Shown here: piece after piece, positions 982-41,343 of the stretch | Position numbering within the stretch: position 1 is the stretch's first letter | How the letters are laid out: the number at the start of each line of letters is the position of its first letter | NCBI GenBank assembly: GCA_964610465.1 | Contig: CAZSWA010000004.1 | Span: 8,365 to 72,364, forward strand | Direction: 5' to 3' | Source of the DNA: an uncultured Gammaproteobacteria bacterium | GTDB taxonomy: Bacteria > Patescibacteriota > Microgenomatia > Levybacterales > UBA12049 | Length of the DNA: 64,000 nucleotides | Translations under genes and position numbers: made by a program | The notes under the pieces: generated by a model | What the model was told of the DNA's origin: nothing | The model's database searches: none | Seen by the model: only the letters and a program-made list of their open reading frames with translations

Positions 982-989
982 GGAAATAA

Positions 990-1613
990 CTATTTAGTGT
1001 TTCTTTTAAGAAACAACCCGGCAATTACGGAGAATAACCCGGCAAGAACTACCCCATACAAAAAGATGATATTCCCTGTATTGGCAAGACCTAAAACAGA
1101 TTGTACCGGAGAAGAGCTGTTATTACTCGTTGTATTGTTTGAGGTATTGTTGGTCGTATTATTGGTTGTGTTGTTTGTGGTGTTATTGATAGTATTGTTG
1201 GTGGTCGTATTGCAGGCAAAATTTGAATTTTGTGCTGCATATCTGTCGTCTGATAATCCCCATGCTGAGCCGCTTGGAATATCATACCAACCCTGACTCT
1301 GTAATACCTTTACATCATCGTCTGACAGTTGTGCTACATTCCACCAATTGGTTTGAATACCTTGACCGTTTGGAGGACAAAAACATTGCATATACATGTT
1401 GTTTTCTGACAACTCATATACCATATCACTGCCTTGTACGGTATTTTCATATCCTGGAATTCCATGGTCACCTTGTGTATAACTTACTTTAAGTGTTCCT
1501 TGCGGATTAATACATGATGGGAATGACGGGGTGGTTACGGCAAATGCAGGTCTTGCGAAGACTGCAAAAAGGGGCAGGGTAATAATGATGGTAACTATCT
1601 GCCTGAATTTCAT
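990..1613 (-). CDS. Sortase-substrate surface protein: signal peptide, Cys-containing globular domain, Asn/Thr-rich stalk (NNTTNNT repeats), C-terminal LANTG + TM + KRNTK tail
   Basis: N-terminal signal peptide (AFA|VT); low-complexity N/T repeats; C-terminal 'LANTGN' followed by hydrophobic helix and basic tail = LPXTG-like cell-wall sorting signal. Confidence 0.7.
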   Translation of the reverse strand: MKFRQIVTIIITLPLFAVFARPAFAVTTPSFPSCINPQGTLKVSYTQGDHGIPGYENTVQGSDMVYELSENNMYMQCFCPPNGQGIQTNWWNVAQLSDDDVKVLQSQGWYDIPSGSAWGLSDDRYAAQNSNFACNTTTNNTINNTTNNTTNNTTNNTSNNTTSNNSSSPVQSVLGLANTGNIIFLYGVVLAGLFSVIAGLFLKRNTK

Positions 1614-1671
1614 TATAAATATTACCCTATATTTAGTATGTTTGGAATTATAAAGTATGGATAAACAAAAG

Positions 1672-2937
1672 TCAATAAGGTAATTGTAATAGATAACTTA
1701 TAGGAAAAAGTAATGTGCTTAGTTGATAGGTTATAAAAGACAGAACTGCACTAAATGGTGTAACTAATGTAATATGAAGATTAGTATCGGCTGACGAGAA
1801 ACGAATAGTTTTGAGCATATAGGAAGGTGCTGCAAAGGTAATTTGTATCCCGTCCTGAAGGTAAGGCAAAGAGAATCCACCATTACTATTGGTAATAGTA
1901 CCATAACGGTTACCTGCTTCTATATGTACATTTGCAATTGGAATATGTTGCGAATTTGTGACTATACCTTGCACGTAATCCGCTGAGTAAAATTTTGCAA
2001 GTGTCTTAACAGAAGGAGAAGCAATACCATTGCTATCCCAAATTTCAGTTGATCCTCCTGTACCTACCCAATAACTCACTCCTACCAAATCTTTTATTGA
2101 TGCGAGTTTTGAGAGCGCGAAACGTATCCATTGCTCCTGTTGATTTTTTGTCATACTTCCGTGGATATCAGGTATCGGTGCGCCAAATTCTCCCAGCACT
2201 ACTTTTCCGCCGCTTCTTTGGGCAAAATCTTTTATGTCATGTGCAAGTTGTTCAGGAGTTGCGACATAGTGATCAACCGTCACAATCCCATCGAGTTGTT
2301 TGGTGGTTTCAGGGTCCATTACCAGACGTGCAACATCTCCATTCATAGAAAAATAATTTGATTCCACATTCTTGTGTATTTCCTGAAATGCTAATTTCGT
2401 TACGTTATATTCTGTGATTAAAAAATTGCGATATCCTTTTACATCCTGAGTATTTCTGGGGTCACCTGGACCACCATTTTCACATTCGGGGCAGGAACTA
2501 AATATATCTCCATCCTCAAATATATCAGGGTTATTAAGAATAAAGTTAAGTGTTTTTTCTATATGCTGGTTTTGTGATATCTTAGGATAATCAAACCAAC
2601 CCTCCCATCCGGAAAAATTTCCCCGAAACCAGACGTGCAGGTGATATTTACGGGCAGCACTTACCCAACGTTTGAGTATCGGCAAAAATTCATCATCATA
2701 GGGAGTCCCTATAGCCACATGAGTTGCACCAGTATTGGCAATTTCCCGCACTTGAGTATCGATAGCTTTATCAAAAGACGAGTCATTGAGTTTCTCACGG
2801 CTTAAATCGCGGGAATATTTCATCGTATCTATTGATTCAAATTCCCATTGAGTATGCGTTTGTGCAAACGCACGAGGTACATGAAGACTAACCCATGCGA
2901 AAAAAATGAAACTTAGTATCACTATCAGTATTTTCAT
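1672..2937 (-). CDS. Secreted glycoside hydrolase-like protein (clan GH-A TIM-barrel-like, 'LGEFG' motif) with C-terminal carboxypeptidase-regulatory-like beta-sandwich
   Basis: Signal peptide; GEFG-type motif typical of GH5/GH26-like nucleophile region; C-terminal 'GTITNSNGGFSLP' CarboxypepD_reg-like segment. Family assignment uncertain. Confidence 0.4.
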   Translation of the reverse strand: MKILIVILSFIFFAWVSLHVPRAFAQTHTQWEFESIDTMKYSRDLSREKLNDSSFDKAIDTQVREIANTGATHVAIGTPYDDEFLPILKRWVSAARKYHLHVWFRGNFSGWEGWFDYPKISQNQHIEKTLNFILNNPDIFEDGDIFSSCPECENGGPGDPRNTQDVKGYRNFLITEYNVTKLAFQEIHKNVESNYFSMNGDVARLVMDPETTKQLDGIVTVDHYVATPEQLAHDIKDFAQRSGGKVVLGEFGAPIPDIHGSMTKNQQEQWIRFALSKLASIKDLVGVSYWVGTGGSTEIWDSNGIASPSVKTLAKFYSADYVQGIVTNSQHIPIANVHIEAGNRYGTITNSNGGFSLPYLQDGIQITFAAPSYMLKTIRFSSADTNLHITLVTPFSAVLSFITYQLSTLLFPISYLLQLPY

Positions 2938-2963
2938 ATAAATGCGTAACTATTAGCTATCTG

Positions 2964-4637
2964 CTACTTTTGCTGTGCTAGAACAGGTTTTGTATGAAGA
3001 TCTGATAAATATTGAGGTTTTATTTCATAGATATCAGCAAAAGGGAAATGATGAATAAGTATGTATTTGTTCATTGCCGGGTTTGTATGAATAAGTTTAA
3101 ATGTCAAATCATTTGTATCGTGAGTTCTCATAATTATCCACCTTGCCCATCTGTCAGGATGTGCTGTTGCATAATCCCAATATAATCCTGTCCCCTCATG
3201 AATAAATTTACTCATAGGAAGACCTGATGAGAAAATTATAGCATCATGTGAAGCAACTGAGATAAGGATAAAACCATCTTGATTCGTTGCATGGTCACGT
3301 AACCATCCACTTACTTCCTTTACATTTTTACCACTTGATCCAACAAGCGCATCATCAATGGTAACCGCATCTCTTGCAGTAAAAGAGAAAAAGGTTACAA
3401 ATAGCAAAAGACCTATGAGAGCAAATCGTAATAATTTCAGTCTTTGCACGAGATATCCGATAAAAATCGCAAGAGATGGCAACATCATAAGTCCATAGCG
3501 GACATTAAACCATGACTTTCCTGAAATACCTTGCACATATAACACTGACTGACCCATATAGAGTGCCAAAACGTTAAAGAAAAATGGCGCTAAGAGAGCT
3601 GCCAAAGCGAGTTTAGTTTTTACCTTAATATTTTTGTCAAACCAAAGTATTACCGCTCCTGTTGCTCCCAAGAATAGAGTCAAAGCACCGGAATTATATA
3701 CAAGCGCATAGAGGTAAATAATAAGGGAAAGTAAAAAATTACCTTCCGTAGGAAGTGCACCTGCTCTTTTTAACTGTAGTTGCTGTTCACGAGCAGAATA
3801 AGGACCATTTATGAAATAAAGAGCATCCTTGAAAATCATCTGATTCCAAAGTAACCATAAAACAAGTCCAAAACCAGCAAGGGTCAGAAACAATACAAAA
3901 ATTCCTTCTGTTTTTTTATATCCATATTTTTTCCAGATGTATAATACCATGATGCAGGTGGAGAAAATTAAAAGAAACCATCCATCATAGCGTATAAGCG
4001 TTGAAAGCAATATCCAGAATCCGGCATAAATAAGATGAATAATTTGTTCGTTTTCATACCATACCAAAAGCTCATATACCCCAGCTGTCATAGTACCAAG
4101 CAACAAAAGCTCAGTCATGGCAGTTGATTGCATATAGAGAATATTAAGATTAGCTGCAAAGATAAATACGCCTGCAAGTCTTCCAATCATTCCCACACGT
4201 AAATGCTTTAAGAAAAGATACACAATAAGCCCGGTACCAATATAGGCAAGCATTGATTGTAATGCTCCTGCAAGCCCTGAGTGCCACATGAAATCATTCC
4301 ATACAGTTGCTATCATCAGAATATGAGGAAGAGGTAACCAGACACTTCCAAGCTGTGCAACACCAGGTTTAAGATTTTCAACTACACGTCTGGCAATATC
4401 TAAATGCGAACGGGCATCATTGTATGCAATACCAAGACCATTTTGATAAAACACAAAGAAGCTTGCTGCAGATATCAGAGAAAGAATTATTCCAAGCAAT
4501 AGAAGTGCTTTTTTTTCAAACCAATCCTGTATCCTGTTTAGAGTTGCAAACTGTAAAGTAAAACCTATTGATAGTGATTTAAGACTAAAACGCATAATTA
4601 TTTTCCTTTCTTGAAAGCGAAATCTTAGATATAACAA
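2964..4637 (-). CDS. Polytopic membrane glycosyltransferase, GT-C fold (PMT/ArnT-like, family 39/83-like) with C-terminal extracytoplasmic domain
   Basis: >10 predicted TM helices followed by ~150-aa soluble C-terminal domain; overlaps upstream paralog by ~50 nt (true start may be internal Met 'MRFSLKS' ~4595). Confidence 0.45.
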   Translation of the reverse strand: MLYLRFRFQERKIIMRFSLKSLSIGFTLQFATLNRIQDWFEKKALLLLGIILSLISAASFFVFYQNGLGIAYNDARSHLDIARRVVENLKPGVAQLGSVWLPLPHILMIATVWNDFMWHSGLAGALQSMLAYIGTGLIVYLFLKHLRVGMIGRLAGVFIFAANLNILYMQSTAMTELLLLGTMTAGVYELLVWYENEQIIHLIYAGFWILLSTLIRYDGWFLLIFSTCIMVLYIWKKYGYKKTEGIFVLFLTLAGFGLVLWLLWNQMIFKDALYFINGPYSAREQQLQLKRAGALPTEGNFLLSLIIYLYALVYNSGALTLFLGATGAVILWFDKNIKVKTKLALAALLAPFFFNVLALYMGQSVLYVQGISGKSWFNVRYGLMMLPSLAIFIGYLVQRLKLLRFALIGLLLFVTFFSFTARDAVTIDDALVGSSGKNVKEVSGWLRDHATNQDGFILISVASHDAIIFSSGLPMSKFIHEGTGLYWDYATAHPDRWARWIIMRTHDTNDLTFKLIHTNPAMNKYILIHHFPFADIYEIKPQYLSDLHTKPVLAQQK

Positions 4638-6186
4638 GAAGCACTGAGGTAAAAATGATAATAGAAAATATTATATCAAGATAATAATCCCACGCAGAAA
4701 TGAAATGTTTTGCAAAAGTCGTATAGATAAATGCCTTTGAGCCTTGCGTATTTAAATAATTAAAATTGCGAACATAGGTATAGTCTTGTTTTACTCCTGA
4801 GATTTTTTCAAGTGCTTGTGCTTCTATCATCGGAGGATTATTGCTTGTAGTAAGTGCACCTAATGTGTTAACTGCAGTAGAATAACTGAAAAGCATGAGA
4901 AATAATAAAAGAAAAATATTTTTCCGTCCAAAGCGGGTCAGATATATTGCAATAAAGATAGAAAGTATTGCATAAGAAGGAATTAAATAACGTGCGCCAA
5001 AGGCCCATCCCCCCCAGGGGTCACCCCACATTGCATAAAGGAGTATATTAATACCTATAACTGCTACAAAAAGTGATAAATAAGGAATTCTTCTCCTATA
5101 GGCAATAATCAAACCTATTACACCCAAAATCATAATTGGAGTAAAAATAAGTGTTCCTCTATCAGGACTGATAAATAATACAAAGAAACCATTTAAGAGA
5201 TATCTTGGGTTAAAAAATGTTATGGCATTTATTTCGTTGTTTTTTGGAGAAGTATTGGAGTTTGTGTTACCGGTTTTTGTAATTTTTGCTGCTGCTTCAA
5301 TGTTTAATTTGTTTATCTGTTTATTATTCACTGTCTGTATTTTTTCAACTCTTGGTAACGAACCGGATAACTGCAGAGGATTACCAAATGACATGAAGTT
5401 AAACCACAAGAGGAAAAGTACAGGGATAATTGCCGAAACAGCATTAAAAAGTCTTCCAAAATGAAGCTCTACATCCATAGATTTTCTACGTATTTTATAA
5501 GAGACAATCCCGAAAAGTGTATACAAACCAATAGGAAGTATCATAAATAAGTTTGAATAGTCTATGACAATTGATGTACCACAAAGAAACCATACCAGCA
5601 TATAGGAGAAAAAGTTTTTGTAACGGATAAGACAATAAATACTCAGAAGAATAAGAAAGGTTGAGATATGATGTTGATAAAAATCAACCGCATATGCATA
5701 TGCAGGAGTCGCAAAAAGAAAGGTAAGCCCGGCAATTGCTGACGCCAATTTATTTGCACCTAAACGTATTGCAATTGCCATAATAAGAAGCATATTCACA
5801 AGAGCAAATAATGCTATCATTGCAAATGTTCCTACTTGTGAGATTCCAAGTATTTTACCAACAAGATATCCTGGCATTCCTATAAATGACACACCAGGTG
5901 CAAAAAGTGATACATAGTGATTGTGAATAATAGCAAGATCTGGAGTTGCAAATTGCGCAACCGGAAGAGAAAATTGAAATGAATGGTCCTCGAGTACTGA
6001 GTAAAGTAAAGCAAATCTTCCACTCTGTTCAAACGGTCCATTTTCACGCCAGGAAGATGAGTTAAAGTTGTTACTTGTCGGATTTCCAGCAATACCACGT
6101 ATACTTAGCATTAAGATAACTGCGGTAAAAATAATGCAAAGCATTGGAAGAGAAATTTGTTGTAAGAAACGGAATACTGTTTTCAT
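4585..6186 (-). CDS. Polytopic membrane glycosyltransferase, GT-C fold (PMT/ArnT-like), paralog of previous
   Basis: Multi-TM N-terminal two-thirds, C-terminal soluble domain; architecture of dolichyl/undecaprenyl-phosphate-sugar dependent GT-C enzymes. Confidence 0.45.
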   Translation of the reverse strand: MKTVFRFLQQISLPMLCIIFTAVILMLSIRGIAGNPTSNNFNSSSWRENGPFEQSGRFALLYSVLEDHSFQFSLPVAQFATPDLAIIHNHYVSLFAPGVSFIGMPGYLVGKILGISQVGTFAMIALFALVNMLLIMAIAIRLGANKLASAIAGLTFLFATPAYAYAVDFYQHHISTFLILLSIYCLIRYKNFFSYMLVWFLCGTSIVIDYSNLFMILPIGLYTLFGIVSYKIRRKSMDVELHFGRLFNAVSAIIPVLFLLWFNFMSFGNPLQLSGSLPRVEKIQTVNNKQINKLNIEAAAKITKTGNTNSNTSPKNNEINAITFFNPRYLLNGFFVLFISPDRGTLIFTPIMILGVIGLIIAYRRRIPYLSLFVAVIGINILLYAMWGDPWGGWAFGARYLIPSYAILSIFIAIYLTRFGRKNIFLLLFLMLFSYSTAVNTLGALTTSNNPPMIEAQALEKISGVKQDYTYVRNFNYLNTQGSKAFIYTTFAKHFISAWDYYLDIIFSIIIFTSVLLVISKISLSRKENNYAF

Positions 6187-6192
6187 AGGGTA

Positions 6193-7134
6193 CTATTTGA
6201 ATGCAATTTCTTTTTGTGATATCCCTTTTTTTGTAGATTCTATAAGCTTCCATACTCCTTCTTTCTCAAAAGAGTTTTGTTTTTTCGGAAAAAGCTTCAT
6301 AAATGAGAAAAAAGCCCCTCCTCCAAAAAGAGAAACCGGATCCCTTACTACCATTTTTGCAAGTGCTCTTACTTTATATTGGAACGGAATCGTATATTCA
6401 TTTATTATATTTTCTCCAAACATTTTCATAAGGAGCACTCGCTCTCCATTTGTCCTATTCACTTGCAAAAAATAGTCATGGACATTATCAGGAGAACGAA
6501 AAAGCACTACTGCATCTTTGGCGAAATGGAAAGACAGCCCGTTTTTTTTAGCTGAGAAATAAAGATATTGTGATTCTGATGTAATTTTTTTAGGAATTCT
6601 TATTTTTTTTACTAGAGAACCACGTATTGCCATAATACAACCTCTTATATTATGAATATGATTTCCATTATTAACATCCTTCCGGGTTTCATACCACACT
6701 CTGGTCCATGTATTAATAAATTCTTCAACTGTTGTTTTTGCCTTAACAGGTAGATTATTCCCACCTACTATTCCTACAGATTCATCAAAATTTTTGATAA
6801 GGTTATCAATTACATATTTTGATGCCGGAAGTATATCAGCATCAAAACTAACCAGAAAGTCACTTTTATTCAATGCATAAAGCTGATTTAAGCGATAGGC
6901 TTTCCCACGTCTCTTTTTATCATCAATTATAGTTATTAGTTTGTTTTTCTGTGCTATTTCCTTTACTCTCACAACGGTATTATCGGTACAACCATCACAT
7001 ATCACAATAATGTTCTTAAGTACGTAATATCTCTGATTTTGCTTAAGTATTTCTGTAAGCAAGTTTTTAATATTGTTTTCTTCATTACAGGCAGGTATAC
7101 CTACTGTTACTGTTGGTTTTTTTAAAGATTTCAT
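6193..7134 (-). CDS. Glycosyltransferase family 2 (GT-A fold)
   Basis: N-terminal 'VGIPACNEE' ... 'DGCTDNT' ... 'FDADILP' DxD motif. Confidence 0.8.
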   Translation of the reverse strand: MKSLKKPTVTVGIPACNEENNIKNLLTEILKQNQRYYVLKNIIVICDGCTDNTVVRVKEIAQKNKLITIIDDKKRRGKAYRLNQLYALNKSDFLVSFDADILPASKYVIDNLIKNFDESVGIVGGNNLPVKAKTTVEEFINTWTRVWYETRKDVNNGNHIHNIRGCIMAIRGSLVKKIRIPKKITSESQYLYFSAKKNGLSFHFAKDAVVLFRSPDNVHDYFLQVNRTNGERVLLMKMFGENIINEYTIPFQYKVRALAKMVVRDPVSLFGGGAFFSFMKLFPKKQNSFEKEGVWKLIESTKKGISQKEIAFK

Positions 7135-7182
7135 GATTTCTACTCCTGCAATTATACTATAAGATAGTATATTTATCCAGTA

Positions 7183-8991
7183 TTATTCCAGCGCGATTCT
7201 CTTGGTAGATGAAGCTACTGTCCATCTGCTATCTATTGCTTTGTTTCTTGCTATTCTCGTCTTGATAAGTATATAAAGATAGGCACTAAAATATATAGGG
7301 TTCATAATAAAGAATTTAATAAGTGCCTTAAGCACTAAATAGGTAGGTAACACATATTCTGTTTCATCCAAAGGAACGAATTTACGCAGTTCCTGCTTTG
7401 ATGATTGAAACCGGGTAGACTGGAGAAGATGATCATGAAAAGATACTGGAGATTTATAATATACTTTCAGTTTAGGTAAATAGCGTGGCATAAAATTATA
7501 TGAGCGTGCGAGAAAGTAGAAATATGTATCATTATTAACCAATGTTTCAGGCAGTACAATTTTCCTTGCGAAATTGCCATCTAATCCAAGAAAAACTCCC
7601 CGAAAGGCTAAGTAATTACATCCCTTTTTCCATTTTCTCCTTACATCCATTTGTAACCGAACATTATAATTTACGCATTTCTCAAAAAATGATGAGCCGC
7701 TAAGTGGTACTGCTTCAACAGAAATTAGTCCATCTCTTTCAAGATGAGATTGTTTTAAAATTGACTCGAAAAGATGGGTATCTTTAATCATGGTATCTGC
7801 ATCGATAATAAAAAGCACATCTCCTTTAAAACGTGAGAAAATCTGATTGAGGCGTGTTGATTTTCCTTTTCTTTCTTTTTCAGCAATAAGAGTAATACGT
7901 GACTCTTTTATTTCCCTGGCCTTTTCAATAGTTTTATCTGAACTTCCATCAGAAACAACAATAATTTCTTTAAGAAAAAAATTATTTTCTTCCTGATGCA
8001 AAACTGATTGGATAATACGCTTAATATTTTTTTCTTCATTATAAGCAGGTATCCCTACTGATATGGAAATGTTTGTTTTATAAGAGTGGGAAAGTATTTT
8101 TGTTGAAGGTGTTGTTGCCCAAAGATCAGAAAAGTTCTTATTCGTTATTCTACTTTCTACTTTCCATTTCATTAACATGTAAAATATAAATAGAATTGGA
8201 TGAGATATAAAGAATTGCAGAGAGATTGTAAAAATAAGATGTTTCGGTCTTTCATAAACTTTTTCTATAAATTCTTTTGGAAAATAAGAAAGTAATGTGT
8301 TTTTAGCTGAAAAGATTTTTTGTCTTTCTTTTATCAGATCTTCAAGATTATGAGGAGCACGATAGTAACAAACGGCAGAAGTCTGGACAGTCGTTTTGAT
8401 ATTATTTTGTCTACACCATAAAAGAGCATACGAATCTTCCGGAACAGATATGGGCCACACAAGTTTTTTATATACAAGTTTACTAAACGCTCTTCCACTT
8501 CTTCCCGTACAAAATACATTCCGTGTTATAGGATTTTTGAATGTGCACTCTCTATAAATGTTACCCTGTATGGAAATTGCTTTTTCAAATATATTGCGGG
8601 GGGAAAGAGGTGTCTTGTTACCTTGTACCATTCCAATTTTGTTATTTTTTGCTATTGGCTTAAGAAGCTCGTCGATAAAAAGATTATTTACAGGCATGGT
8701 ATCTGCTTCAAAGAGTACGACTACATCAGTATCTGCCATCTTAAAAATTTTATTTTGAGCAGAAATTTGACCCTTTCGCTTTTTATTTCTAATTAAGGTA
8801 ATTTTTGAATTTTTTAAATCGAGAATATTTCTGTCTGTATTATCAGTGCTTGCATCAGACACGACAATAATTTGTTTTATGATAAAATATGTCTCTTTTT
8901 GTGACAAAATTTTATTAAGAAGATATATAATATTATGCTCTTCGTTGTAGGCAGGAATGCCAATTGTTACGGTAAGTTTTTTATTTTTCAT
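7183..8991 (-). CDS. Tandem double GT2 glycosyltransferase (two GT-A domains in one polypeptide)
   Basis: Two copies of the 'IGIPAYNEE(H/K)NI' ... 'SD(A/G)STD' ... 'DAD' GT2 signature at residues ~8 and ~310. Confidence 0.75.
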   Translation of the reverse strand: MKNKKLTVTIGIPAYNEEHNIIYLLNKILSQKETYFIIKQIIVVSDASTDNTDRNILDLKNSKITLIRNKKRKGQISAQNKIFKMADTDVVVLFEADTMPVNNLFIDELLKPIAKNNKIGMVQGNKTPLSPRNIFEKAISIQGNIYRECTFKNPITRNVFCTGRSGRAFSKLVYKKLVWPISVPEDSYALLWCRQNNIKTTVQTSAVCYYRAPHNLEDLIKERQKIFSAKNTLLSYFPKEFIEKVYERPKHLIFTISLQFFISHPILFIFYMLMKWKVESRITNKNFSDLWATTPSTKILSHSYKTNISISVGIPAYNEEKNIKRIIQSVLHQEENNFFLKEIIVVSDGSSDKTIEKAREIKESRITLIAEKERKGKSTRLNQIFSRFKGDVLFIIDADTMIKDTHLFESILKQSHLERDGLISVEAVPLSGSSFFEKCVNYNVRLQMDVRRKWKKGCNYLAFRGVFLGLDGNFARKIVLPETLVNNDTYFYFLARSYNFMPRYLPKLKVYYKSPVSFHDHLLQSTRFQSSKQELRKFVPLDETEYVLPTYLVLKALIKFFIMNPIYFSAYLYILIKTRIARNKAIDSRWTVASSTKRIALE

Positions 8992-9815
8992 ATAGCGTTT
9001 TGTGTTACCTTTCGCAGTATCTTTCTCATATAAATACCTGATGTCAAAAATGCTGCTTTAAATTCTATAAAACTGTGCGTCCCATCAACTCCCACCCGCG
9101 GAACGAGAAGCGGATTCGTTGATAGAGTAATAAGCTCATCCACTAAAGATAATCCCATTTTAAACCCCGCTTTCTTCACCGCTCTTTGCGCAGGTAGTGA
9201 AAAATAACCCTTCGGATAGGCAAAATAATTAATTTTGCAGTTAAGTTCTTTTTCAAGTTTCTTTTTTGATTGTACTATCTCATAATCAATATCTTTCTGA
9301 GAAATATGTAGGAGATTGGCATGAGTAGCACTATGTGAACCAATTTCCCATCCTGACTTTTGAAGGGTAAGTACTTCTTTTTTTGAAAGAAGCGGTTTCA
9401 TATTATCAAGTTCCTTTCTATTAGGCTTTTGGCTATCTGCAAGTACAAAAAGTATTGGTCTAATACCTAGCTTTTTAAAGTAGTCCTTTGTTTCATACAC
9501 ATCTTTATATCCATCATCAAAAGTAATTACTACTGACTTTCTCTCTATTTTCTTTTGTCTATTTATATATTTATATACATCATCAAGACTTATAAAGTCG
9601 TAATGTTTTCTAAGGTATTCTATTTGAGCCTTAAGTACATCAAAGGGGACAGCAAAACGCCATCTATCCTTTGATATACTGTGATAACAAAGTATTACAA
9701 TTTTATTTTTGTTCGTCAAAATAAGCACTTTATCAAGTAAAAACATACTCGCATACAATGCTTTTCTGGCTTTAAAAAATAACATATTTCTTATAAAATT
9801 TCGTAGAGTACTCAT
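8988..9815 (-). CDS. Polysaccharide deacetylase (CE4, NodB homology domain)
   Basis: 'VVITFDDGYKD' ... 'ILFVLAD' ... 'GWEIGSHSATH' NodB motifs; 4-nt overlap with neighbours (operon). Confidence 0.7.
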   Translation of the reverse strand: MSTLRNFIRNMLFFKARKALYASMFLLDKVLILTNKNKIVILCYHSISKDRWRFAVPFDVLKAQIEYLRKHYDFISLDDVYKYINRQKKIERKSVVITFDDGYKDVYETKDYFKKLGIRPILFVLADSQKPNRKELDNMKPLLSKKEVLTLQKSGWEIGSHSATHANLLHISQKDIDYEIVQSKKKLEKELNCKINYFAYPKGYFSLPAQRAVKKAGFKMGLSLVDELITLSTNPLLVPRVGVDGTHSFIEFKAAFLTSGIYMRKILRKVTQNAI

Positions 9816-12800
9816 GCTTTCTCAGCCTCCATAAAGATAAGATTTTTGAGTAATTCCTGTTGAGCCTGTCCTCTTACTGTATTTTCTATAATGGTTGCAA
9901 ATAAGGTTGCACTTTCATCCCAATCAAAATTCTTCGACCAGACAAATGCATTTCTGGAAAGTGTTTGCAGGTAAAATGAGTCATTGATAAGAAACTGCAT
10001 CGCACTGGTAAAATCTTTAATACTATGAGGCTTGACCAAAATTCCTGTTTTTCCATCCAGTACTGAATCAGATAATCCATTTACTTTTGATGCAATTACC
10101 GGTGTACCTGAAGCATTCGCCTCAATTACCGTAATACCCCAACCTTCAACTTCAGACGGTTGTAAAACTGCCCAGCTTTCGGAAAGAAGTGATGCTTTTT
10201 TCTTTTCATTTACTTTTCCCAGGAAATTTACTTGTTTTTGTATACCCAATTTTTTTACCAGTCTGGTAAGGCTTTTTAATGAATCTCCTTCGCCTGCTAT
10301 GGTAAGTCGCGCAGCTGGAACTGTTTTAAGAAGAAGTGAGAAAGCATTTATAGCAATATCAATATTTTTATAGGGTTTAAGTCTTCCTAAGTAGGCAAAT
10401 GATGGGTAAGGTGTCTTTTGTCCTGGTGTAAATCGTTGAGAATTTATCCCGTTGTAGATTATCTGAATTTGTTGTGAACTTGAAAAGCCCAGTTTATAGA
10501 TTTCCTTTCTTGATGACTCAGACACTGTAATAATGCTTTTATTTTTATACAGAAATGGCATACACTTAGCTTCAAGAAATTCAGCAACCTGAGCCAGCGG
10601 AAATGACAGATACCTTCTAAATACTTCCTGATGCACATGATGCACTACAAGAAATACAGGTTTTTTTACATATAAAGGACTGAAAAAAGGAATTCCATTC
10701 TCACAATCTATTACCACATCAGTTTTTTGCTTGAAGAAAAGAAGGTAATAAATAAATGCCCATATATATACAGTATATGTACCGCCCCTACGGATAATCT
10801 TCACACCATCTATAATCTGATTTCGAGGATTTTCTCCATCATTTCCGCAAAATACAGTTACACTATTACCTTCTTTAACCCATCGTTTGGCAAGTTCGTG
10901 AATATATACTTCAGCTCCTCCAGCCCAGGTATGTTTGATATCTCGCCAATTAAGAATAAGAACTCCAAGCCTTTTGTCGTGTTTGGGTTTACCTGGCTGA
11001 CTTCCTTTAAAACTTAAAAGATCAGCAAGATTAACTTCTACTACTTTCACAAAACGATAGTTAAGGTGCAAAAGCAACATAATTGCCAGATTTAATATCC
11101 CGGTCCATACCATTGCATTGACAATTGCCTGTATATTTGTATGATTTATTTGGATAAGCACGAATTGTAATCCTATCAAAAGGAAAGATGATATAGTTGA
11201 GGTATATGATTTCAAAGAAAGATAGTAAGATACATATACCCGTGAGATAGTAAAACACATGATAGAAAAAGAAAAAAGAGTAATATAAGAAATGATAATT
11301 GCTGCCTTTCCACCAAAAATTATTGGAAGTGTTTGATAACCGAAGACACCAAATACCAGAAATCCAATAAAGCTTAAGGAAAACGTTGCAGCCAATAAGA
11401 TGTAGAGTGTTTTTGTAGAATCTTTTTTGCCTCCTTCATTGCGACTTACAAGTGGTATGACAAACTGAGTAGAAAGACCTCCTAAGAAAAATACCATTTT
11501 GCCAACTAGTGAAATAAGCGCATATTTCCCTGCATCCTCTGCGGATAGATAATGTTTTGCAAGCATAATATCTAAACTCATAAACGCTAAAGTAGAAAGA
11601 CCTGACAATATGGAAGCAAGGAAATAATTATTAGGAAACTTTTTTACTTCCTGCTCATATTCTTTTTTAAGAATCGGGACTTGTTTTCTGCCTACAAGCA
11701 AAAAACTGAGAACAAATGCTAAGACAAAAGAAAGCGGAATAGAAATATACACTAACTCCGGAAGATTCAATTTAACAAATACAAACGCACTAATAAATTT
11801 GATAAAAGGTTCAAAAATAGTAAGGAGTGCGAGAGTTCCAAACATAAATTTTCCATAGAGATAACCCTTATCAACTGAAAATGCAAATCCAATAATCCAT
11901 ACAAAAACAAAAATGACAAAAGGTATAATGCTGTCTGACTTAAAATATTTTACAAGAAACGGTGAGGCACATAACCATAATGCAGAGATTATCAACGCAA
12001 AGTAGAATGAATTTTTGCGAATATGTTTCCAGAAATAAAATGCTGATATTTCTCCGTATTGTCCATCTAAAAATGCGCTCTTATAATTTACCGTTGAGTT
12101 AAGTGCTGCAAAGGGAATATTAGAAATAAATAAAAGGCTTGAAATAAGACTTATGAAACCAAAGTCAGCCAAATCTACTTCCTTGCCAACATATAAATTG
12201 AAGGCGAGATTGAGAACATTTGCTCCAAAACTTGCGACAACAAGAATTCCAGCTGAAAAAAGACCATTTTTAACTGCATTCTTAAAATTCAATTTTTGAT
12301 ATATTCCTGAAAAATCAGGGATAACTGAAGGAACTGGACGTGGCGGCATAAATGGTTTTTGTTGTTCTTTGAGTTTTGATTGCTGAGTCCTTTTTATTTC
12401 CGGTTTTGTCTTAAGATGAAGTCCATGTACTGTTTTCTCCCAATAATGAGGTTTAAAAAGCAGCTGTTGTATCGCAACAAGCGCCGCAATACTCATAAGA
12501 AGCCAATAGAACGGGATAAGTAGTGAATATTTCACCAGTGACCATTGATTTCTTTTGGCACAGCCAATCATGTAGTAATAAAGAAAAAGAAAATTTCCAA
12601 AGACAAAGGCAAAAATTGCCAGATAAAAATAAGGAACAAGGTACAGCGATTCAATGGTTGGTCCAAATATAGGATAAAATCCAAAATACAAAATAGTAAC
12701 AAGCCATAAGAAAGGATTTATCAGAAGAAACGCGAGCTTTCCACCTACAGTCATTTGGAAAATAAGCTCGTGATGCAACCCTTTTTTCCTGATAAATGTC

Positions 12801-14638
12801 CAGGAATTTCTCATATTCACAAGGTACGTCTGCATATAGCCTTTTATCCAGCGTGAACGCTGTCTTAACCAATTAGGAACTTTACTATTCGCTTCCTCAA
12901 GAGTGGTAGAGTCAATAACTGCCGTTTTATACCCTTGCTGGAATAAGCGGGTACCCAAATCCGCATCTTCTGTTACATTAAAAGGATCCCAACCTTGAAG
13001 TTCACGAAGATTTTTTGTTTTGAAATGATTACTTGTCCCGCCAAGAGGTAAGGCAGAATTAAGCGATTGAAGTCCTGTAAGCGTCAAATCAAACCACAAT
13101 GAGTATTCAGCGGTAAAAAAACGGGTAAGGAGATTCTGAGTTGGATTGTAGTAATTGAGCTTTGCCTGCATGCATTTCACATCACCTGGTGCCTTCTGGA
13201 AAGCAATATAGGCTTTCTTAAGTTGAAGTGGATCAGGCATGTCTTCTGCATCATAAATTACAAGATAATCACCTTTGGCAATTGCCAAACCATAATTACA
13301 GGCTTTAGGTTTTGTCTTTGGAGCTGAATTAGGTACTATTACTTTTCTAAAGTAGAAAGGTAATTTCATCTTCTTTATCGTATCTATGGTTTCAATATCA
13401 TCTTCTTCAAGAAGGAGTATTACATCAAGCTTGTTTTTAGGCCAGTCCAGCCTTGAGATAGCTTCAATAAATTGAGGTACTACATGTGCTTCTTTATACA
13501 AAGGACAAAGTATAGAGTAGATAGGAAGTGCAATTTCTGCAATCTCTGCAATTTCCTTATCCTCAAATATAATTTCAGCTGGTTTTCGAAGGCTCCGTAA
13601 GACAACGAATAAGTTAAAAACCGTATCAATAAAATAAATGATACTTAAGACTGAAACAACAATTCGAAGTGTATCAAGTGTATCTGCAATGAACCCTGCA
13701 ATAACTGTAAGAATAATCGTCAGAAGTCCAAGCTGCTGCCAGAAGTTCATTGTTTGAAGCGCAGAAAGATGAAGAGGCAGTGTAGTATGAGTAATATATT
13801 TCTTTTTTTTATAGCCAATACCTGCTCCTTGCATTGAGCTGTATTGTTTAGGTGGCACAATCATAGGAGGCATTTTTTTCATTTTGAGTCGCATAGCATT
13901 TGTTCCTATTTCAAGTGAACTTCTTGTGACGGACACCTTTGAATCCCCATATGCACGCGGAGCAAATACGATATCATAATTAGCAAGGGTAAAACCGGCT
14001 TGACGAGCCCTATGGAGAAATTCAAGATCAAAAGTCCACGCAGATGTAGGCTTAAATTTTATCGTTTCATATACCTCTTTTGTAAATACTTTAAGACCCG
14101 CTTGAATATCATTGGTTAATCCAAACATCATCTTTCCAAAGAGATAACGGAATGCTCTACTGACTGTTCTTCGCACAAATGATTCTTTATTCTTCTCTCT
14201 ATTCGCAACAACCACATCACTTTCTTTTAGCATTTTTACCATGGGGAGAATAGCATTTGGAGGATACTGTAAATCACCATCAATCATAACGAGGATATTG
14301 CCTGTGGCTTTCTGAAATCCTTCAATAAGAGAGTATGCTTTGCCTTTTCTACCTATTTTTCTGTACACTCTGACAAATTTGAGTTTTTGCAGTTTCTTAA
14401 GAATGCTAAACGTTCCATCTGTTGAGTAATCATCAACATAAATTATTTCAAATTGTTTTCCAGTCTTATTAAGCGTCTTTACCAGTTCTTTATGTAAAGA
14501 TTTAATATTATCAGCCTCATTATACAAAGGCACAATAACGCTTATACTTTGGTTTTTTGTGAACACAGTTCTCATCTTTCTCTGTTTCAGGCAGGAATTA
14601 GTGAAGTCTACGATAGTTCTTAATTGGGGAGTATTCAT
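9812..14638 (-). CDS. Giant 1608-aa fusion: GT2 (DPM1-like) + TM + processive GT2 (D,D,D,QRSRW) + MOP/Wzx-like polysaccharide flippase TM domain + C-terminal GT4 (GT-B)
   Basis: 'VIVPLYNEADNI...YVDDYSTDGT...DGDLQYPP'; second GT2 'ILCPLYKEAHV...YDAEDMP...TEDADLG...QRSRWIKG'; ~14 TM flippase-like block; C-terminal 'EGWGITVIEANASGTPVIAS' GT4 motif; uninterrupted ORF. Confidence 0.75.
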   Translation of the reverse strand: MNTPQLRTIVDFTNSCLKQRKMRTVFTKNQSISVIVPLYNEADNIKSLHKELVKTLNKTGKQFEIIYVDDYSTDGTFSILKKLQKLKFVRVYRKIGRKGKAYSLIEGFQKATGNILVMIDGDLQYPPNAILPMVKMLKESDVVVANREKNKESFVRRTVSRAFRYLFGKMMFGLTNDIQAGLKVFTKEVYETIKFKPTSAWTFDLEFLHRARQAGFTLANYDIVFAPRAYGDSKVSVTRSSLEIGTNAMRLKMKKMPPMIVPPKQYSSMQGAGIGYKKKKYITHTTLPLHLSALQTMNFWQQLGLLTIILTVIAGFIADTLDTLRIVVSVLSIIYFIDTVFNLFVVLRSLRKPAEIIFEDKEIAEIAEIALPIYSILCPLYKEAHVVPQFIEAISRLDWPKNKLDVILLLEEDDIETIDTIKKMKLPFYFRKVIVPNSAPKTKPKACNYGLAIAKGDYLVIYDAEDMPDPLQLKKAYIAFQKAPGDVKCMQAKLNYYNPTQNLLTRFFTAEYSLWFDLTLTGLQSLNSALPLGGTSNHFKTKNLRELQGWDPFNVTEDADLGTRLFQQGYKTAVIDSTTLEEANSKVPNWLRQRSRWIKGYMQTYLVNMRNSWTFIRKKGLHHELIFQMTVGGKLAFLLINPFLWLVTILYFGFYPIFGPTIESLYLVPYFYLAIFAFVFGNFLFLYYYMIGCAKRNQWSLVKYSLLIPFYWLLMSIAALVAIQQLLFKPHYWEKTVHGLHLKTKPEIKRTQQSKLKEQQKPFMPPRPVPSVIPDFSGIYQKLNFKNAVKNGLFSAGILVVASFGANVLNLAFNLYVGKEVDLADFGFISLISSLLFISNIPFAALNSTVNYKSAFLDGQYGEISAFYFWKHIRKNSFYFALIISALWLCASPFLVKYFKSDSIIPFVIFVFVWIIGFAFSVDKGYLYGKFMFGTLALLTIFEPFIKFISAFVFVKLNLPELVYISIPLSFVLAFVLSFLLVGRKQVPILKKEYEQEVKKFPNNYFLASILSGLSTLAFMSLDIMLAKHYLSAEDAGKYALISLVGKMVFFLGGLSTQFVIPLVSRNEGGKKDSTKTLYILLAATFSLSFIGFLVFGVFGYQTLPIIFGGKAAIIISYITLFSFSIMCFTISRVYVSYYLSLKSYTSTISSFLLIGLQFVLIQINHTNIQAIVNAMVWTGILNLAIMLLLHLNYRFVKVVEVNLADLLSFKGSQPGKPKHDKRLGVLILNWRDIKHTWAGGAEVYIHELAKRWVKEGNSVTVFCGNDGENPRNQIIDGVKIIRRGGTYTVYIWAFIYYLLFFKQKTDVVIDCENGIPFFSPLYVKKPVFLVVHHVHQEVFRRYLSFPLAQVAEFLEAKCMPFLYKNKSIITVSESSRKEIYKLGFSSSQQIQIIYNGINSQRFTPGQKTPYPSFAYLGRLKPYKNIDIAINAFSLLLKTVPAARLTIAGEGDSLKSLTRLVKKLGIQKQVNFLGKVNEKKKASLLSESWAVLQPSEVEGWGITVIEANASGTPVIASKVNGLSDSVLDGKTGILVKPHSIKDFTSAMQFLINDSFYLQTLSRNAFVWSKNFDWDESATLFATIIENTVRGQAQQELLKNLIFMEAEKA

Positions 14639-16495: not shown

Positions 16496-16657
16496 ATGGC
16501 AAAGAGAACTGCCCGTAGAGTACATCATACAAAAGCTCATCATCCTGTACATCACAGATTGCACAAACCTGTAAACAATGTAGTTGGTTATAGTATCATT
16601 TTTGCAGTAGCAGCAATTGTATTGGTAATGGTAATGAGTTTTGCAGGAGCCAACTAA
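16496..16657 (+). CDS. Small His-rich, C-terminally membrane-anchored protein (53 aa: MAKRTARRVHHTKAHHPVHHRLHKP...)
   Basis: Strong SD AAAGGAGG 7 nt upstream of ATG; below the 60-aa ORF-track cutoff; 7 His in first 25 residues then hydrophobic helix. Confidence 0.5.
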   Translation: MAKRTARRVHHTKAHHPVHHRLHKPVNNVVGYSIIFAVAAIVLVMVMSFAGAN

Positions 16658-17214: not shown

Positions 17215-17333
17215 ATACGTATAAAGCGCATCATAATACGAAAAGGTGCGAAAAGCAAATACAATTCCATGAGGAGTTTTGCATTGTAAAAGGATTGCAT
17301 AATAAATAAACCTTACAAAGCTTTTTCGTTTCC

Positions 17334-17360: not shown

Positions 17361-17369
17361 TCTACAAGA

Positions 17370-41342: not shown

Positions 41343-41343
41343 G

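What the first reader, a model, noticed from the sequence alone, without database searches (positions are those of the whole stretch)
1672..14638. Surface glycan assembly locus with two PMT/ArnT-like GT-C enzymes next to Ser/Thr/Asn-rich sortase substrates, a candidate protein O-glycosylation system
A co-directional minus-strand block encodes a secreted GH-like enzyme, two polytopic GT-C proteins, a GT2, a GT2-GT2 fusion, a CE4 deacetylase and a giant GT/flippase fusion. Several overlaps are 4 nt (translational coupling). GT-C enzymes of the PMT family O-mannosylate Ser/Thr-rich secreted proteins in Actinobacteria. Here they flank proteins with long N/T/S-rich stalks. The arrangement fits a lipid-linked sugar pathway: GT2 makes polyprenyl-P-sugar, a flippase moves it, and GT-C transfers it to surface proteins.
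Basis: inference. Interest (0 to 1): 0.7.

Follow-up and report, generated by a model that had tools for sequence, protein, structure and literature searches.

The report
Conserved surface-glycan operon of Microgenomates
This is a nine-gene operon, conserved across the uncultivated Microgenomates bacteria, that most likely builds and decorates a cell-surface polysaccharide using two previously unclassified membrane glycosyltransferases; it is kept next to one small wall-anchored protein and its own sortase, and that link is unexplained.

Summary
The gene block is real, but it runs further than reported, to 442..14638 on the minus strand. It is one tight operon. It encodes a 1608-aa fusion (polyprenyl-P-sugar-synthase-like GT2, processive QxxRW GT2 synthase, 12-TM module, GT4), a CE4 deacetylase, a GT2-GT2 fusion, a GT2, two polytopic proteins (memA, memB), a secreted GH-like protein, a 207-aa LANTG protein and a sortase.

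memA and memB have no Pfam, NCBIfam-level or PDB sequence assignment. Their AlphaFold models match only GT-C enzymes. Remote relatives of memB reach Pfam PMT_2.

The module memA-memB-GHl-small protein-sortase is syntenic across Microgenomates. The glycosyltransferase and sugar-modifying genes upstream of it vary, as in polysaccharide loci. Relatives of memB occur fused to memA, to the GH-like protein, to GH5 or GH113 domains, to processive GT2 synthases, and to GtrA plus GT2.

This favours extracytoplasmic glycan decoration or assembly from polyprenyl-P-sugars over protein O-mannosylation. The N/T-rich stalk is specific to this genome; orthologous stalks are Gly-rich, acidic, Pro/Thr-rich or FN3 domains. 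Protein glycosylation is not excluded. The conserved link to the sortase substrate is the interesting open point.

The parts
9812..14638 (-). 1608-aa multidomain protein ('giant'). Residues 29-260 (nt 13859-14554): GT2 resembling polyprenyl-phosphate sugar synthases, followed by TM helices at 303-344. Residues 370-735 (nt 12434-13531): processive GT2 synthase with YDAED (462), TED (556) and QRSRW (593), followed by TM helices. Residues 770-1225 (nt 10964-12331): ~12-TM module, possibly a MOP/Wzx-like flippase. Residues 1235-1590 (nt 9869-10936): GT4.
   Evidence: Pfam. NCBIfam by segment: domain 1 best hits PgfS 99 bits, ArnC 74 bits, AglJ, Dol-P-hexose transferase, PpgS; domain 2 hits CelA and PgaC. 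Hydropathy. Motif positions. 12-TM module: no hit for the window copy; 1/16 homologues hit Polysacc_synt_3 at 1e-11 and 1/16 hit MatE.
8988..9815 (-). CE4 polysaccharide de-N-acetylase (275 aa), PgaB/IcaB-like. No clear signal peptide. Overlaps both neighbours by 4 nt (ATGA).
   Evidence: Pfam Polysacc_deac_1 at 2e-21. NCBIfam PgaB and IcaB hits, below cut-off. Sequence. Overlaps.
7183..8991 (-). GT2-GT2 tandem fusion (602 aa) with one hydrophobic segment between the two halves.
   Evidence: Two Glycos_transf_2 stretches. Hydropathy.
6193..7134 (-). Single-domain GT2 glycosyltransferase (313 aa), soluble.
   Evidence: Pfam Glycos_transf_2 at 9e-21.
4585..6186 (-). memA: 533-aa polytopic GT-C-fold glycosyltransferase of an unclassified family. 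The first outside loop carries near-invariant E53 and R57 and invariant P82-D83.
2964..4595 (-). memB: 543-aa polytopic GT-C-fold glycosyltransferase with a C-terminal extracytoplasmic alpha/beta domain (residues 425-543, nt 2967-3323). Invariant Y58-N-D60-A-R-S-H64 lies in the first outside loop (nt 4398-4424). The start ATG at 4595 overlaps the end of memA by 11 nt.
   Evidence: No Pfam, NCBIfam or PDB sequence hit. Model pLDDT 77. Foldseek: STT3, ArnT (TM 0.54), AglB, PglB. Family conservation 61-67% identity. Remote relatives hit PMT_2 at 27-35 bits. Start site.
1672..2937 (-). GHl: 421-aa secreted or membrane-anchored protein. It has an N-terminal hydrophobic signal, a ~300-aa conserved domain (possible clan GH-A-like TIM barrel with an LGEFG motif; nt 1978-2862) and a C-terminal CarboxypepD_reg beta-sandwich (nt 1771-1974).
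   Evidence: Pfam CarboxypepD_reg. 5/32 homologues weakly hit Glyco_hydro_cc and 1/32 hits Cellulase. The same family is fused to the C-terminus of memB in P0252, P0260, P0293 and P0376. No PDB sequence hit. hhalign against GH5 is not significant.
990..1613 (-). Small surface protein (207 aa). It has a signal peptide, a ~108-aa head domain with 4 conserved Cys and a Trp-rich GIQTNWW motif (nt 1212-1535), a 41-aa N/T/S linker with 14 N-x-S/T sequons (nt 1089-1211), an LANTG sorting motif (nt 1074-1088), and a TM segment plus basic tail.
   Evidence: Sequence. Family alignment. Linker and motif survey. Composition. No Pfam or PDB match. All homologues are annotated 'hypothetical'.
442..981 (-). 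Sortase (179 aa, N-terminal TM anchor), encoded 8 nt downstream of its presumed LAxTG substrate. Last gene of the operon.
   Evidence: Pfam Sortase at 2e-18. Found directly downstream of the small protein in 62/66 metagenome loci and 35/52 genome loci. The next gene lies on the opposite strand.

Best explanation
The operon 442..14638 (minus strand) makes, decorates and processes a cell-surface glycan in a Microgenomates (CPR/Patescibacteria) bacterium.

Inferred from domain homology:
- On the cytoplasmic face, the processive QxxRW GT2 synthase domain, the GT4 and the extra GT2s build a glycan that probably contains HexNAc.
- The CE4 enzyme de-N-acetylates it.
- Export goes through the synthase channel and/or the 12-TM module.
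- The N-terminal GT2 domain of the giant protein loads a monosaccharide onto polyprenyl phosphate.

Inferred from fold, conservation and fusions:
- Outside the membrane, memA and memB act as a GT-C pair, probably a heterocomplex.
- They transfer sugar from the lipid-P-sugar onto the exported glycan, or extend or attach that glycan.
- The GH-like protein, which sits on the outer face next to the C-terminal domain of memB, trims or remodels the product.

Shown: the small LAxTG protein has the signals of a substrate of the adjacent dedicated sortase.

Speculative: the Cys/Trp-rich head of the small protein on a variable stalk may bind or organise the glycan at the wall.
For: - GT-C fold for both membrane proteins. 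Every significant structural hit is a GT-C enzyme.
- Invariant acidic residues lie in the first outside loop.
- memA lies directly upstream of memB in 72/72 loci. The genes overlap by 11 nt here. They occur as one chain in P0242.
- Relatives of memB are fused to several partners: GtrA+GT2 (P0327); processive GT2 synthases (P0291, P0348, P0350, P0388); synthase plus GH113 (P0332); GH5 (six proteins); the GHl family itself (four proteins).
- Domain 1 of the giant protein best matches PgfS, ArnC, AglJ and Dol-P-hexose synthases. Domain 2 matches CelA and PgaC and carries QRSRW.
- A synthase, a CE4 and a glycanase-like protein together form the usual triad of synthase-dependent exopolysaccharide systems (own knowledge: Pga, Pel, Bcs).
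- Gene content upstream varies between lineages: GT2s, GT4, RmlC, epimerase, PIG-L, acetyl-, pyruvyl- and methyltransferases. The module memA-memB-GHl is constant, as in polysaccharide loci.
- GT-C enzymes that decorate wall polymers from C55-P-sugars are well established (PMC8035078).
Against: - No acceptor has been identified by any direct evidence.
- The fusion evidence comes partly from distant paralogues of memB, which may act on different substrates.
- The GH assignment of GHl is not proven.
- The operon contains no GtrA-type flippase, and the 12-TM module is only weakly MOP-like.
- The model gives no necessary role to the small LAxTG protein and its sortase, yet these lie downstream of memB in about 75% of genome loci.
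- A cluster with a similar layout, S. mutans Pgf, glycosylates LPXTG adhesins.
Confidence: 0.5

Rival explanations
1. Dedicated protein glycosylation. memA/memB transfer sugar from polyprenyl-P-sugar, or memB transfers a lipid-linked oligosaccharide en bloc as an oligosaccharyltransferase does. The acceptor is the adjacent small LAxTG protein and perhaps other N/S/T-rich surface proteins. These are then fixed to the wall by sortase.
For: - The small protein and sortase lie downstream of the GT-C pair in 39/52 genome loci, and 24/40 small-protein-centred metagenome loci have memB upstream.
- The window's stalk is N/T/S-rich with 14 sequons.
- The top Foldseek hits for memB are the oligosaccharyltransferases STT3, AglB and PglB.
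- Precedent: the S. mutans Pgf cluster encodes a GT-A, two GT-C enzymes and LPXTG adhesins that it O-glycosylates.
- Domain 1 of the giant protein best matches PgfS.
Against: - Orthologous stalks are often poor in S/T and lack sequons. They are acidic, Gly-rich, 5-14 residues long, or replaced by FN3.
- About 25-40% of loci separate the GT-C pair from the small protein.
- Fusions of memB relatives to GH5, GH113, GHl and processive synthases are hard to explain for a protein glycosyltransferase.
- There is no PMT (PF02366), YfhO or STT3 Pfam hit, and no conserved WWDYG motif.
- memB is far more conserved (70% column identity) than the proposed acceptor (35%).
Confidence: 0.2
2. Lipoglycan or glycolipid assembly, comparable to mycobacterial LM/LAM or LTA glycosylation. 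The GT-C pair extends a membrane-anchored glycolipid from polyprenyl-P-sugar donors. The synthase product is a separate polymer.
For: - The best structural matches of memA include ALG12, ALG9, GPI-MT-I, AftB and PimE, all of which elongate lipid-linked glycans.
- A GT4 plus a de-N-acetylase (CE4 here, PIG-L in other loci) resembles the early steps of glycolipid pathways.
Against: - No lipid-anchor-specific enzyme was identified.
- The fusions to processive synthases and GH5 point to a polymer substrate.
- Nothing distinguishes this reading computationally from the best explanation.
Confidence: 0.13
3. Glycan-anchored protein (GPI-like logic). The sortase ligates the small protein to an amino group on the operon's glycan or glycolipid rather than to peptidoglycan. 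The amino group would come from de-N-acetylated GlcN, or from GlcN aminoacylated by FemAB-like enzymes. GHl would act as a transglycosylase.
For: - A dedicated sortase-substrate pair is embedded in the glycan operon.
- De-N-acetylases are recurrent in the variable part: CE4 in at least 21 loci and PIG-L in at least 8. FemAB-like Acetyltransf_6 genes occur in at least 7 loci, some fused to PIG-L.
- The component list parallels GPI assembly: a GT4, a de-N-acetylase, a Dpm1-like GT2, GT-C transferases and a transpeptidase acting on a C-terminal signal (own knowledge).
Against: - The idea rests purely on analogy.
- Sortases normally use lipid II. The window also carries a Peptidase_S11 gene nearby on the source contig.
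- The deacetylase is not universal in the flanks that were sampled.
- No evidence bears on the nucleophile.
Confidence: 0.07

Closest known systems
Multi-component (three-component) transmembrane glycosylation systems: GtrB/CsbB/GacI-type GT-A + flippase + GT-C such as YfhO, GtlB or GacL (review PMC8035078)
   Same: - A membrane-linked GT2 resembles C55-P-sugar synthases.
- Polytopic GT-C enzymes carry an outside acidic loop residue.
- One relative of memB has GtrA, GT2 and GT-C in a single chain.
- The genetic context is a wall-glycan locus.
   Different: - The GT-C proteins belong to two families without Pfam models and are not YfhO.
- They come as an obligate adjacent pair.
- There is no GtrA gene in the operon.
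- The GT-A domain is fused into a 1608-aa synthase/GT4 protein.
- The module is linked to a GH-like protein and a sortase substrate.
Synthase-dependent exopolysaccharide systems (PgaCD/PgaB PNAG, IcaADBC, BcsA/BcsZ cellulose, Pel)
   Same: - A processive GT2 carries D,D,D and QxxRW motifs followed by TM helices.
- A CE4 de-N-acetylase lies next to it.
- A secreted glycanase-like protein is present.
   Different: - The synthase is one domain of a four-module fusion.
- The system additionally has a GT-C pair and several non-processive GTs.
- No c-di-GMP (PilZ) module was detected.
- The host is a monoderm-type CPR organism.
Streptococcus mutans Pgf protein O-glycosylation cluster (PgfS, PgfM1, PgfE, PgfM2 with the adhesins Cnm/CnaB/CbpA; Nat Commun 2025, PMC12041528)
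   Same: - One GT-A and two GT-C membrane proteins are encoded with sortase-anchored surface proteins.
- Domain 1 of the giant protein best matches the PgfS model (99 bits).
   Different: - The score is far below the PgfS equivalog cut-off of 500.
- PgfM1 and PgfM2 are YfhO-family proteins; memA and memB are not.
- There is no epimerase here.
- The Pgf cluster has no processive synthase, CE4 or GH.
- Pgf acceptors are S/T-rich IDRs, a feature that is not conserved in the small protein family.
PMT_2 / GT39-GT83 clan (ArnT, bacterial Pmt, uncharacterised 'GT39 family' proteins)
   Same: - Remote relatives of memB pass the PMT_2 gathering score.
   Different: - The window proteins do not hit PMT or PMT_2 themselves.
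- There is no DE motif.
- There is no lipid A in a monoderm CPR cell.
- memB carries its own conserved YNDARSH loop and C-terminal domain.
Class E sortase / LAxTG substrates of Actinobacteria (e.g. Streptomyces SrtE1 and long chaplins; PMC5148588)
   Same: The sorting motif is LAxTG in 48/52 family members, followed by a TM segment and a basic tail. A sortase gene is adjacent.
   Different: - The sortase class was not determined here.
- The substrate head domain is unrelated to chaplins.
- Embedding of the pair in a glycan operon has not been described in the papers searched.

Membership tests
GT-C glycosyltransferase superfamily (fold level) | Polytopic membrane protein whose structure superposes on known GT-C enzymes | tested here: met
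   [not shown]
GT-C glycosyltransferase superfamily (fold level) | Conserved acidic residue in the first extracytoplasmic loop after TM1 | tested here: met
   memB D60 is invariant within YNDARSH, about 10 residues after TM1. memA has invariant D83 and near-invariant E53 in loop 30-97. The N-termini are rich in K/R, so this loop faces outside (sequence). A catalytic role was not tested.
GT-C glycosyltransferase superfamily (fold level) | Uses a polyprenyl-phosphate-linked sugar donor | not testable with these tools
   Context supports it. A PgfS/ArnC/Dol-P-hexose-synthase-like GT2 domain is in the operon, and a GtrA+GT2+memB-like fusion (P0327) exists.
Protein O-mannosyltransferase (PMT, GT39; Pfam PF02366) | Match to the PMT model PF02366 / PMT_4TMC | tested here: not met
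   No Pfam family at E<=10 for either protein. None among 31 memA homologues at E<=1.
Protein O-mannosyltransferase (PMT, GT39; Pfam PF02366) | Asp-Glu (DE) motif in loop 1 (own knowledge of the family) | tested here: not met
   memB has N59-D60 and memA has P82-D83. No invariant DE pair occurs in loop 1.
Protein O-mannosyltransferase (PMT, GT39; Pfam PF02366) | Ser/Thr of secreted proteins as acceptor | not testable with these tools
   Indirect evidence only. S/T-rich stalks are not conserved in the adjacent substrate family.
Pfam PMT_2 (PF13231; ArnT-like / GT39-GT83-like) | Score above the gathering threshold of 26.1 bits | tested here: inconclusive
   The window's memB gives no hit. Ten remote relatives found with the memB profile score 27-35 bits. 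The homology is therefore transitive. memA has no such link.
   No Pfam hit. No WaaL, Wzy or SEDS structure appears among the fold matches.
Oligosaccharyltransferase (STT3/PglB/AglB) | STT3 Pfam domain and a conserved WWDYG motif in the C-terminal domain (own knowledge) | tested here: not met
   No Pfam hit. The memB C-terminal domain has invariant H466-E-G..G..Y472-W473, but the next two positions vary, so there is no WWDYG motif. The structural similarity is at fold level only.
Synthase-dependent exopolysaccharide system | Processive GT2 with a QxxRW motif and following TM helices | tested here: met
   QRSRW at residue 593, YDAED at 462, TED at 556, TM segments at 635-723. CelA hit at 2.6e-17 and PgaC hit at 4.6e-15, both below equivalog cut-offs.
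Synthase-dependent exopolysaccharide system | Associated polysaccharide de-N-acetylase and glycoside hydrolase | tested here: inconclusive
   The CE4 is clear. The hydrolase identity of GHl is only weakly supported.
S. mutans Pgf system | PgfS equivalog, YfhO-family PgfM1/PgfM2, PgfE epimerase | tested here: not met
   PgfS model scores 99 bits against a cut-off of 500. No YfhO hit. No epimerase in this operon.
Sortase-anchored surface protein | Signal peptide, LPXTG-type motif, hydrophobic segment, basic tail, cognate sortase | tested here: met
   The window protein has LANTG + TM + KRNTK. LAxTG occurs in 48/52 homologues. A Sortase Pfam domain is encoded adjacent. The sortase is adjacent in 62/66 loci.

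The most novel reading that the evidence does not exclude
The conserved five-gene module (GT-C pair, GH-like protein, small LAxTG protein, dedicated sortase) may be a machine that covalently joins a protein and a glycan at the cell surface. One version: the small protein is the dedicated carrier onto which the operon's glycan is transferred. The other version: the sortase ligates the protein to an amino-sugar or aminoacylated glycan or glycolipid, a bacterial counterpart of GPI-type anchoring. In the second version the de-N-acetylase and, in other lineages, FemAB-like genes would create the nucleophile.
Probability: 0.12. Interest if true: 0.85.

Novelty: new variant of a known kind. Interest (0 to 1): 0.55.

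Why it matters
Microgenomates are a large uncultivated lineage whose cell envelope is essentially unknown.

This operon supplies several testable leads:
- It assigns a probable function, GT-C glycosyltransferase pair, to two abundant 'hypothetical' membrane protein families. There are more than 1000 and more than 4900 database relatives, and memB relatives occur in 274 species-level genomes.
- It links these families to a GH-like protein family and to a small sortase-anchored protein family that also lack annotation.
- It defines a conserved envelope-biogenesis module that could be expressed heterologously.
- If the sortase substrate turns out to be the acceptor or the anchor of the glycan, this would be a new way of coupling proteins and glycans in bacteria.
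- The unusually high conservation of memB makes it a candidate lineage marker and a candidate essential envelope enzyme.

Tried and rejected
- Direct family assignment of memA and memB failed by Pfam at E<=10, NCBIfam, phmmer against PDB and profile hmmsearch against PDB. The only result was a weak LA_3751/3752 hit for memA.
- I tested whether memA and memB are paralogues. hhalign gave probability 0.8%, so no detectable homology.
- I tested whether GHl is a GH5. hhalign against the GH5 domains fused to memB relatives was not significant, and the profile search against PDB found nothing for the catalytic part.
- I tested whether the 12-TM module is a flippase. The window copy gave no hit in Pfam, NCBIfam or PDB, and only 2 of 16 homologues gave MOP-type hits.
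- A Foldseek search against afdb50 was not available.
- The first metagenome scan with the broad small-protein alignment failed because no stretch was conserved enough. It was repeated with a narrower alignment.
- The promoter and terminator scan was uninformative, with fewer promoter-like sites than in shuffled sequence.
- I suspected an rRNA operon in the GC-rich 38-44 kb stretch. This was rejected: no Rfam hit even at E<=1e-3.
- I considered a conserved S/T-rich stalk as the acceptor. This was rejected after surveying 52 orthologues.
- Literature searches for CPR or Microgenomates together with GT-C, sortase or glycosyltransferase found no description of this module. Méheust 2019 notes only that sortase is near-ubiquitous in Microgenomates and that many Microgenomates-enriched families are hypothetical membrane proteins.

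Full report
**What is there**

Between 442 and 14638 the minus strand carries nine tightly packed genes. An independent gene call on the same contig in a public assembly gives the same genes. It also shows that the next downstream gene is on the opposite strand.

In transcription order the genes are:

1. 9812-14638: a 1608-aa multidomain protein ('giant').
2. 8988-9815: a CE4 deacetylase.
3. 7183-8991: a GT2-GT2 fusion.
4. 6193-7134: a GT2.
5. 4585-6186: memA, a 533-aa polytopic protein.
6. 2964-4595: memB, a 543-aa polytopic protein.
7. 1672-2937: GHl, a 421-aa secreted protein.
8. 990-1613: a 207-aa protein ending in LANTG, a hydrophobic segment and KRNTK.
9. 442-981: a sortase.

Two junctions are ATGA 4-nt overlaps. 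memB starts at ATG 4595, 11 nt before the memA stop, behind an AGGAAA motif. The other gaps are 6-58 nt.

**Domain content**

Pfam confirms the GT2, the GT2-GT2 fusion, the CE4, and GT2+GT2+GT4 in the giant protein. Scanning the giant protein by segment gives four modules:

- Residues 29-260, followed by TM helices at 303-344. The best matches are models for polyprenyl-phosphate sugar synthases: PgfS 99 bits, ArnC 74 bits, AglJ, haloarchaeal Dol-P-hexose transferase and PpgS. All are below equivalog cut-offs.
- Residues 370-735. These match cellulose synthase and PgaC models and carry YDAED, TED and QRSRW motifs followed by TM helices. This is a processive synthase.
- Residues 770-1225. These form about 12 hydrophobic segments with no hit for the window copy. 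Among 16 homologous modules, one hits Polysacc_synt_3 (1e-11) and one hits MatE. 'Flippase' is plausible but weak.
- Residues 1235-1590. This is a GT4.

The CE4 resembles PgaB and IcaB and has no obvious signal peptide.

**The two polytopic proteins**

Neither protein has any Pfam match even at E<=10. memB has no NCBIfam match. memA has only a weak match to the LA_3751/LA_3752 'putative glycosyltransferase' family. Sequence and profile searches of the PDB find nothing.

Both belong to large, well-conserved families annotated only as hypothetical proteins from Patescibacteria (Levy-, Davies-, Gottesman-, Roizmanbacteria and others). memA has more than 1100 relatives at about 50% identity. memB has more than 4900 relatives at 61-67% identity.

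AlphaFold models built on these alignments are good: memA has pLDDT 88 and pTM 0.90, memB has pLDDT 77.

- For memB, the significant Foldseek hits are STT3, ArnT (TM 0.54), AglB, PglB, AftA and Pmt4. memB also has a C-terminal extracytoplasmic alpha/beta domain.

Both proteins have an invariant acidic residue in the first loop after TM1: memB D60 within YNDARSH, and memA D83 with near-invariant E53. 'GT-C' is thus confirmed at fold level.

'PMT-like' is not specifically supported. The similarity to Pmt4 is no greater than to enzymes acting on lipid A, lipid-linked oligosaccharides, arabinan or GPI. The DE motif is absent and no PMT model matches.

A full HMMER search with the memB profile against 1.84 billion representatives found 2733 related clusters. 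Several remote members pass the PMT_2 gathering score at 27-35 bits. memB is therefore a divergent branch of the ArnT/PMT_2-type clan by transitive homology. memA and memB are not detectably homologous to each other.

**Conservation of the arrangement**

A scan of one genome per GTDB species found memB relatives in 274 genomes. Where the organism names are reliable, these are Microgenomates lineages. In 81 non-redundant loci:

| Arrangement | Count |
|---|---|
| memA immediately upstream of memB | 72/72 |
| GHl downstream of memB | 66/71 (adjacent in 54) |
| Small LAxTG protein downstream | 39/52 |
| Sortase right after the small protein | 35/52 |

The reverse test used 80 metagenome loci fetched with the small protein:

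| Arrangement | Count |
|---|---|
| Sortase immediately downstream of the small protein | 62/66 |
| GHl upstream | 36/49 |
| memB upstream | 24/40 |
| memA upstream | 24/37 |

Upstream of memA the content varies. GT2s are present in 56 of 69 loci, giant-like proteins in 54, and CE4 in at least 21. Other components are a family of unknown function, DRL oxidoreductase, GT4, NAD-epimerase, PIG-L, RmlC, FemAB-like Acetyltransf_6, pyruvyl-, acetyl- and methyltransferases, and a nucleotidyltransferase. A variable 'structure' part next to a constant 'assembly' part is the pattern of polysaccharide loci.

**Rosetta-stone fusions**

Among the 150 best memB-profile hits the following fusions occur:

- One protein is memA+memB in a single chain (P0242).
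- Four are memB+GHl (P0252, P0260, P0293, P0376).
- Six carry a C-terminal GH5 cellulase domain in the position of GHl.
- One is processive GT2 synthase + memB-like + GH113 (P0332).
- Four are GT2 synthase (+GT2) + memB-like.
- One is GtrA + GT2 + memB-like (P0327), a complete three-component glycosylation system in one chain.

These fusions tie the memB family to four partners: memA as a physical partner, a polyprenyl-P-sugar donor pathway, a processive polysaccharide synthase, and an extracytoplasmic glycanase-type domain. This is the strongest evidence that the acceptor is a glycan.

It also lends indirect support to the GH-like label of GHl. On its own, GHl rests on weak Glyco_hydro_cc hits in 5 of 32 members, and it is not significantly similar to GH5 by hhalign.

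**The sortase substrates**

The 207-aa protein belongs to a family with the following parts:

- a signal peptide;
- a ~105-residue head with four conserved Cys and Trp-rich motifs (QCFC, GIQTNWW, WGL);
- a linker;
- (V)LG-LAxTG in 48/52 members;
- a TM segment and a basic tail.

The linker is 5-58 residues long and its composition is not conserved. It is N/T-rich here (14 sequons), S/G-rich in many members, Pro/Thr-rich in some, and acidic or 'SDGR'-repeat in others. Some members have almost no S/T. In one subgroup an FN3 domain lies between the head and the LAxTG signal.

The architecture is a head displayed on a variable spacer. The family has no Pfam or PDB relative, and all database members are annotated 'hypothetical'.

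Upstream of the operon, beyond a Fic gene, lie a second sortase and three proteins with 37-44% N+S+T. One of them ends in LPATG. They are not part of the conserved module.

**Mechanism**

I commit to a glycan-directed model with confidence about 0.5.

- The synthase, GT4 and GT2 domains assemble a glycan that probably contains HexNAc, and the CE4 de-N-acetylates it.
- Domain 1 of the giant protein makes a polyprenyl-P-sugar.
- The memA-memB GT-C pair uses that donor outside the membrane to decorate, extend or attach the glycan.
- GHl processes the product.
- The small protein is wall-anchored by its dedicated sortase. It may bind or organise the glycan.

What is shown: the folds, motifs, synteny, fusions and sorting signals. 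What is inferred: donor, acceptor, sugar identity, export route and any role of the small protein.

The main rival, at about 0.2, is dedicated protein glycosylation of the small protein. It is supported by the conserved linkage and by the S. mutans Pgf precedent. In that cluster a GT-A, two GT-C enzymes and LPXTG adhesins are co-encoded, and the adhesins are O-glycosylated. It is weakened by the non-conserved stalks and by the GH and synthase fusions.

A lipoglycan variant (about 0.13) and a GPI-like 'sortase ligates protein to glycan' variant (about 0.07) cannot be excluded.

**Comparison with known systems and novelty**

The operon works most like two known kinds of system combined. One is the multi-component transmembrane glycosylation system of Gram-positive wall polymers (PMC8035078). 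The other is a synthase-dependent exopolysaccharide system.

It is not a member of the PMT, ArnT, YfhO, STT3 or Wzy/WaaL families by any test run here. memB is a remote PMT_2-clan relative. memA is an unclassified GT-C family.

No paper in the searchable library describes the module. Méheust et al. 2019 report only that sortase is near-ubiquitous in Microgenomates and that most Microgenomates-enriched families are hypothetical, many of them membrane proteins.

I rate it a new variant of a known kind. The obligate GT-C pair and the conserved coupling to a GH-like protein and a dedicated sortase substrate are the new elements. Interest is 0.55.

Noticed in passing
window 37500-43800: This stretch has GC 0.46-0.50 against about 0.33 elsewhere. 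It contains only short, broken ORFs, including an antitoxin-like ORF (40088-40369) and a PIN-like ORF (40488-40955). There is no Rfam match even at E<=1e-3 and no tRNA. It could be a foreign island, a decayed mobile element or an assembly chimera.
   Followed up: partly
window 16654-22197: A second sortase (16654-17214) lies next to three surface proteins with 37-44% N+S+T and a recurring 'SGNG..S.N...NTG.N.A..NTG...TG.A' repeat. The 376-aa protein ends in LPATG + TM. The 755-aa protein has only a C-terminal TM. The 421-aa protein has no anchor. This is a separate sortase-substrate set using LPxTG rather than LAxTG.
   Followed up: partly
L003 1-2568: Upstream of the homologous cassette in another Microgenomates contig, a PMT/PMT_2 + GH8 fusion protein lies next to a GT2 synthase on the opposite strand. 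This is another GT-C/glycanase/synthase association.
   Followed up: no
P0327, P0242 (representative proteins): P0327 combines GtrA_DPMS_TM, GT2 and a memB-like GT-C in one 972-aa chain. P0242 is memA+memB in one 1065-aa chain.
   Followed up: partly
window 1089-1211 and orthologues (e.g. L048 12956-13555, L007 4648-5244, L030 6717-7277): The linkers of the small proteins often contain one or two extra 'VLG(A/T)S(T/A)' copies ahead of the final VLG-LAxTG. These look like degenerate duplications of the sorting signal.
   Followed up: no
L143 218-1459; L044 12983-13957; L068 14364-15620: Variant forms of the small protein exist. One ORF runs straight into the sortase reading frame. Two others have the head domain followed by a Cys-containing multi-TM region instead of LAxTG.
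   Followed up: no
window 2964-4595 (memB family, alignment A2): memB is unusually conserved for a CPR membrane protein. Mean column identity is 70% over 31 sequences from different Microgenomates lineages. The corresponding values are 50% for memA and GHl and 35% for the small protein. This suggests a conserved donor and acceptor.
   Followed up: no
L001 7102-9994: In a Daviesbacteria genome the position of the CE4 gene is taken by a PIG-L + Acetyltransf_6 (FemAB-like) fusion and a second Acetyltransf_6 gene, directly upstream of memA. Similar genes recur in other loci.
   Followed up: partly
window 1647-1675 (minus strand): A near-consensus sigma-70-like site (TTGACT-17-TATAAT) lies at the end of the GHl gene, just upstream of the small-protein gene. 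It could be an internal promoter for the small protein and sortase. Overall, such sites are no more frequent than in shuffled sequence.
   Followed up: no
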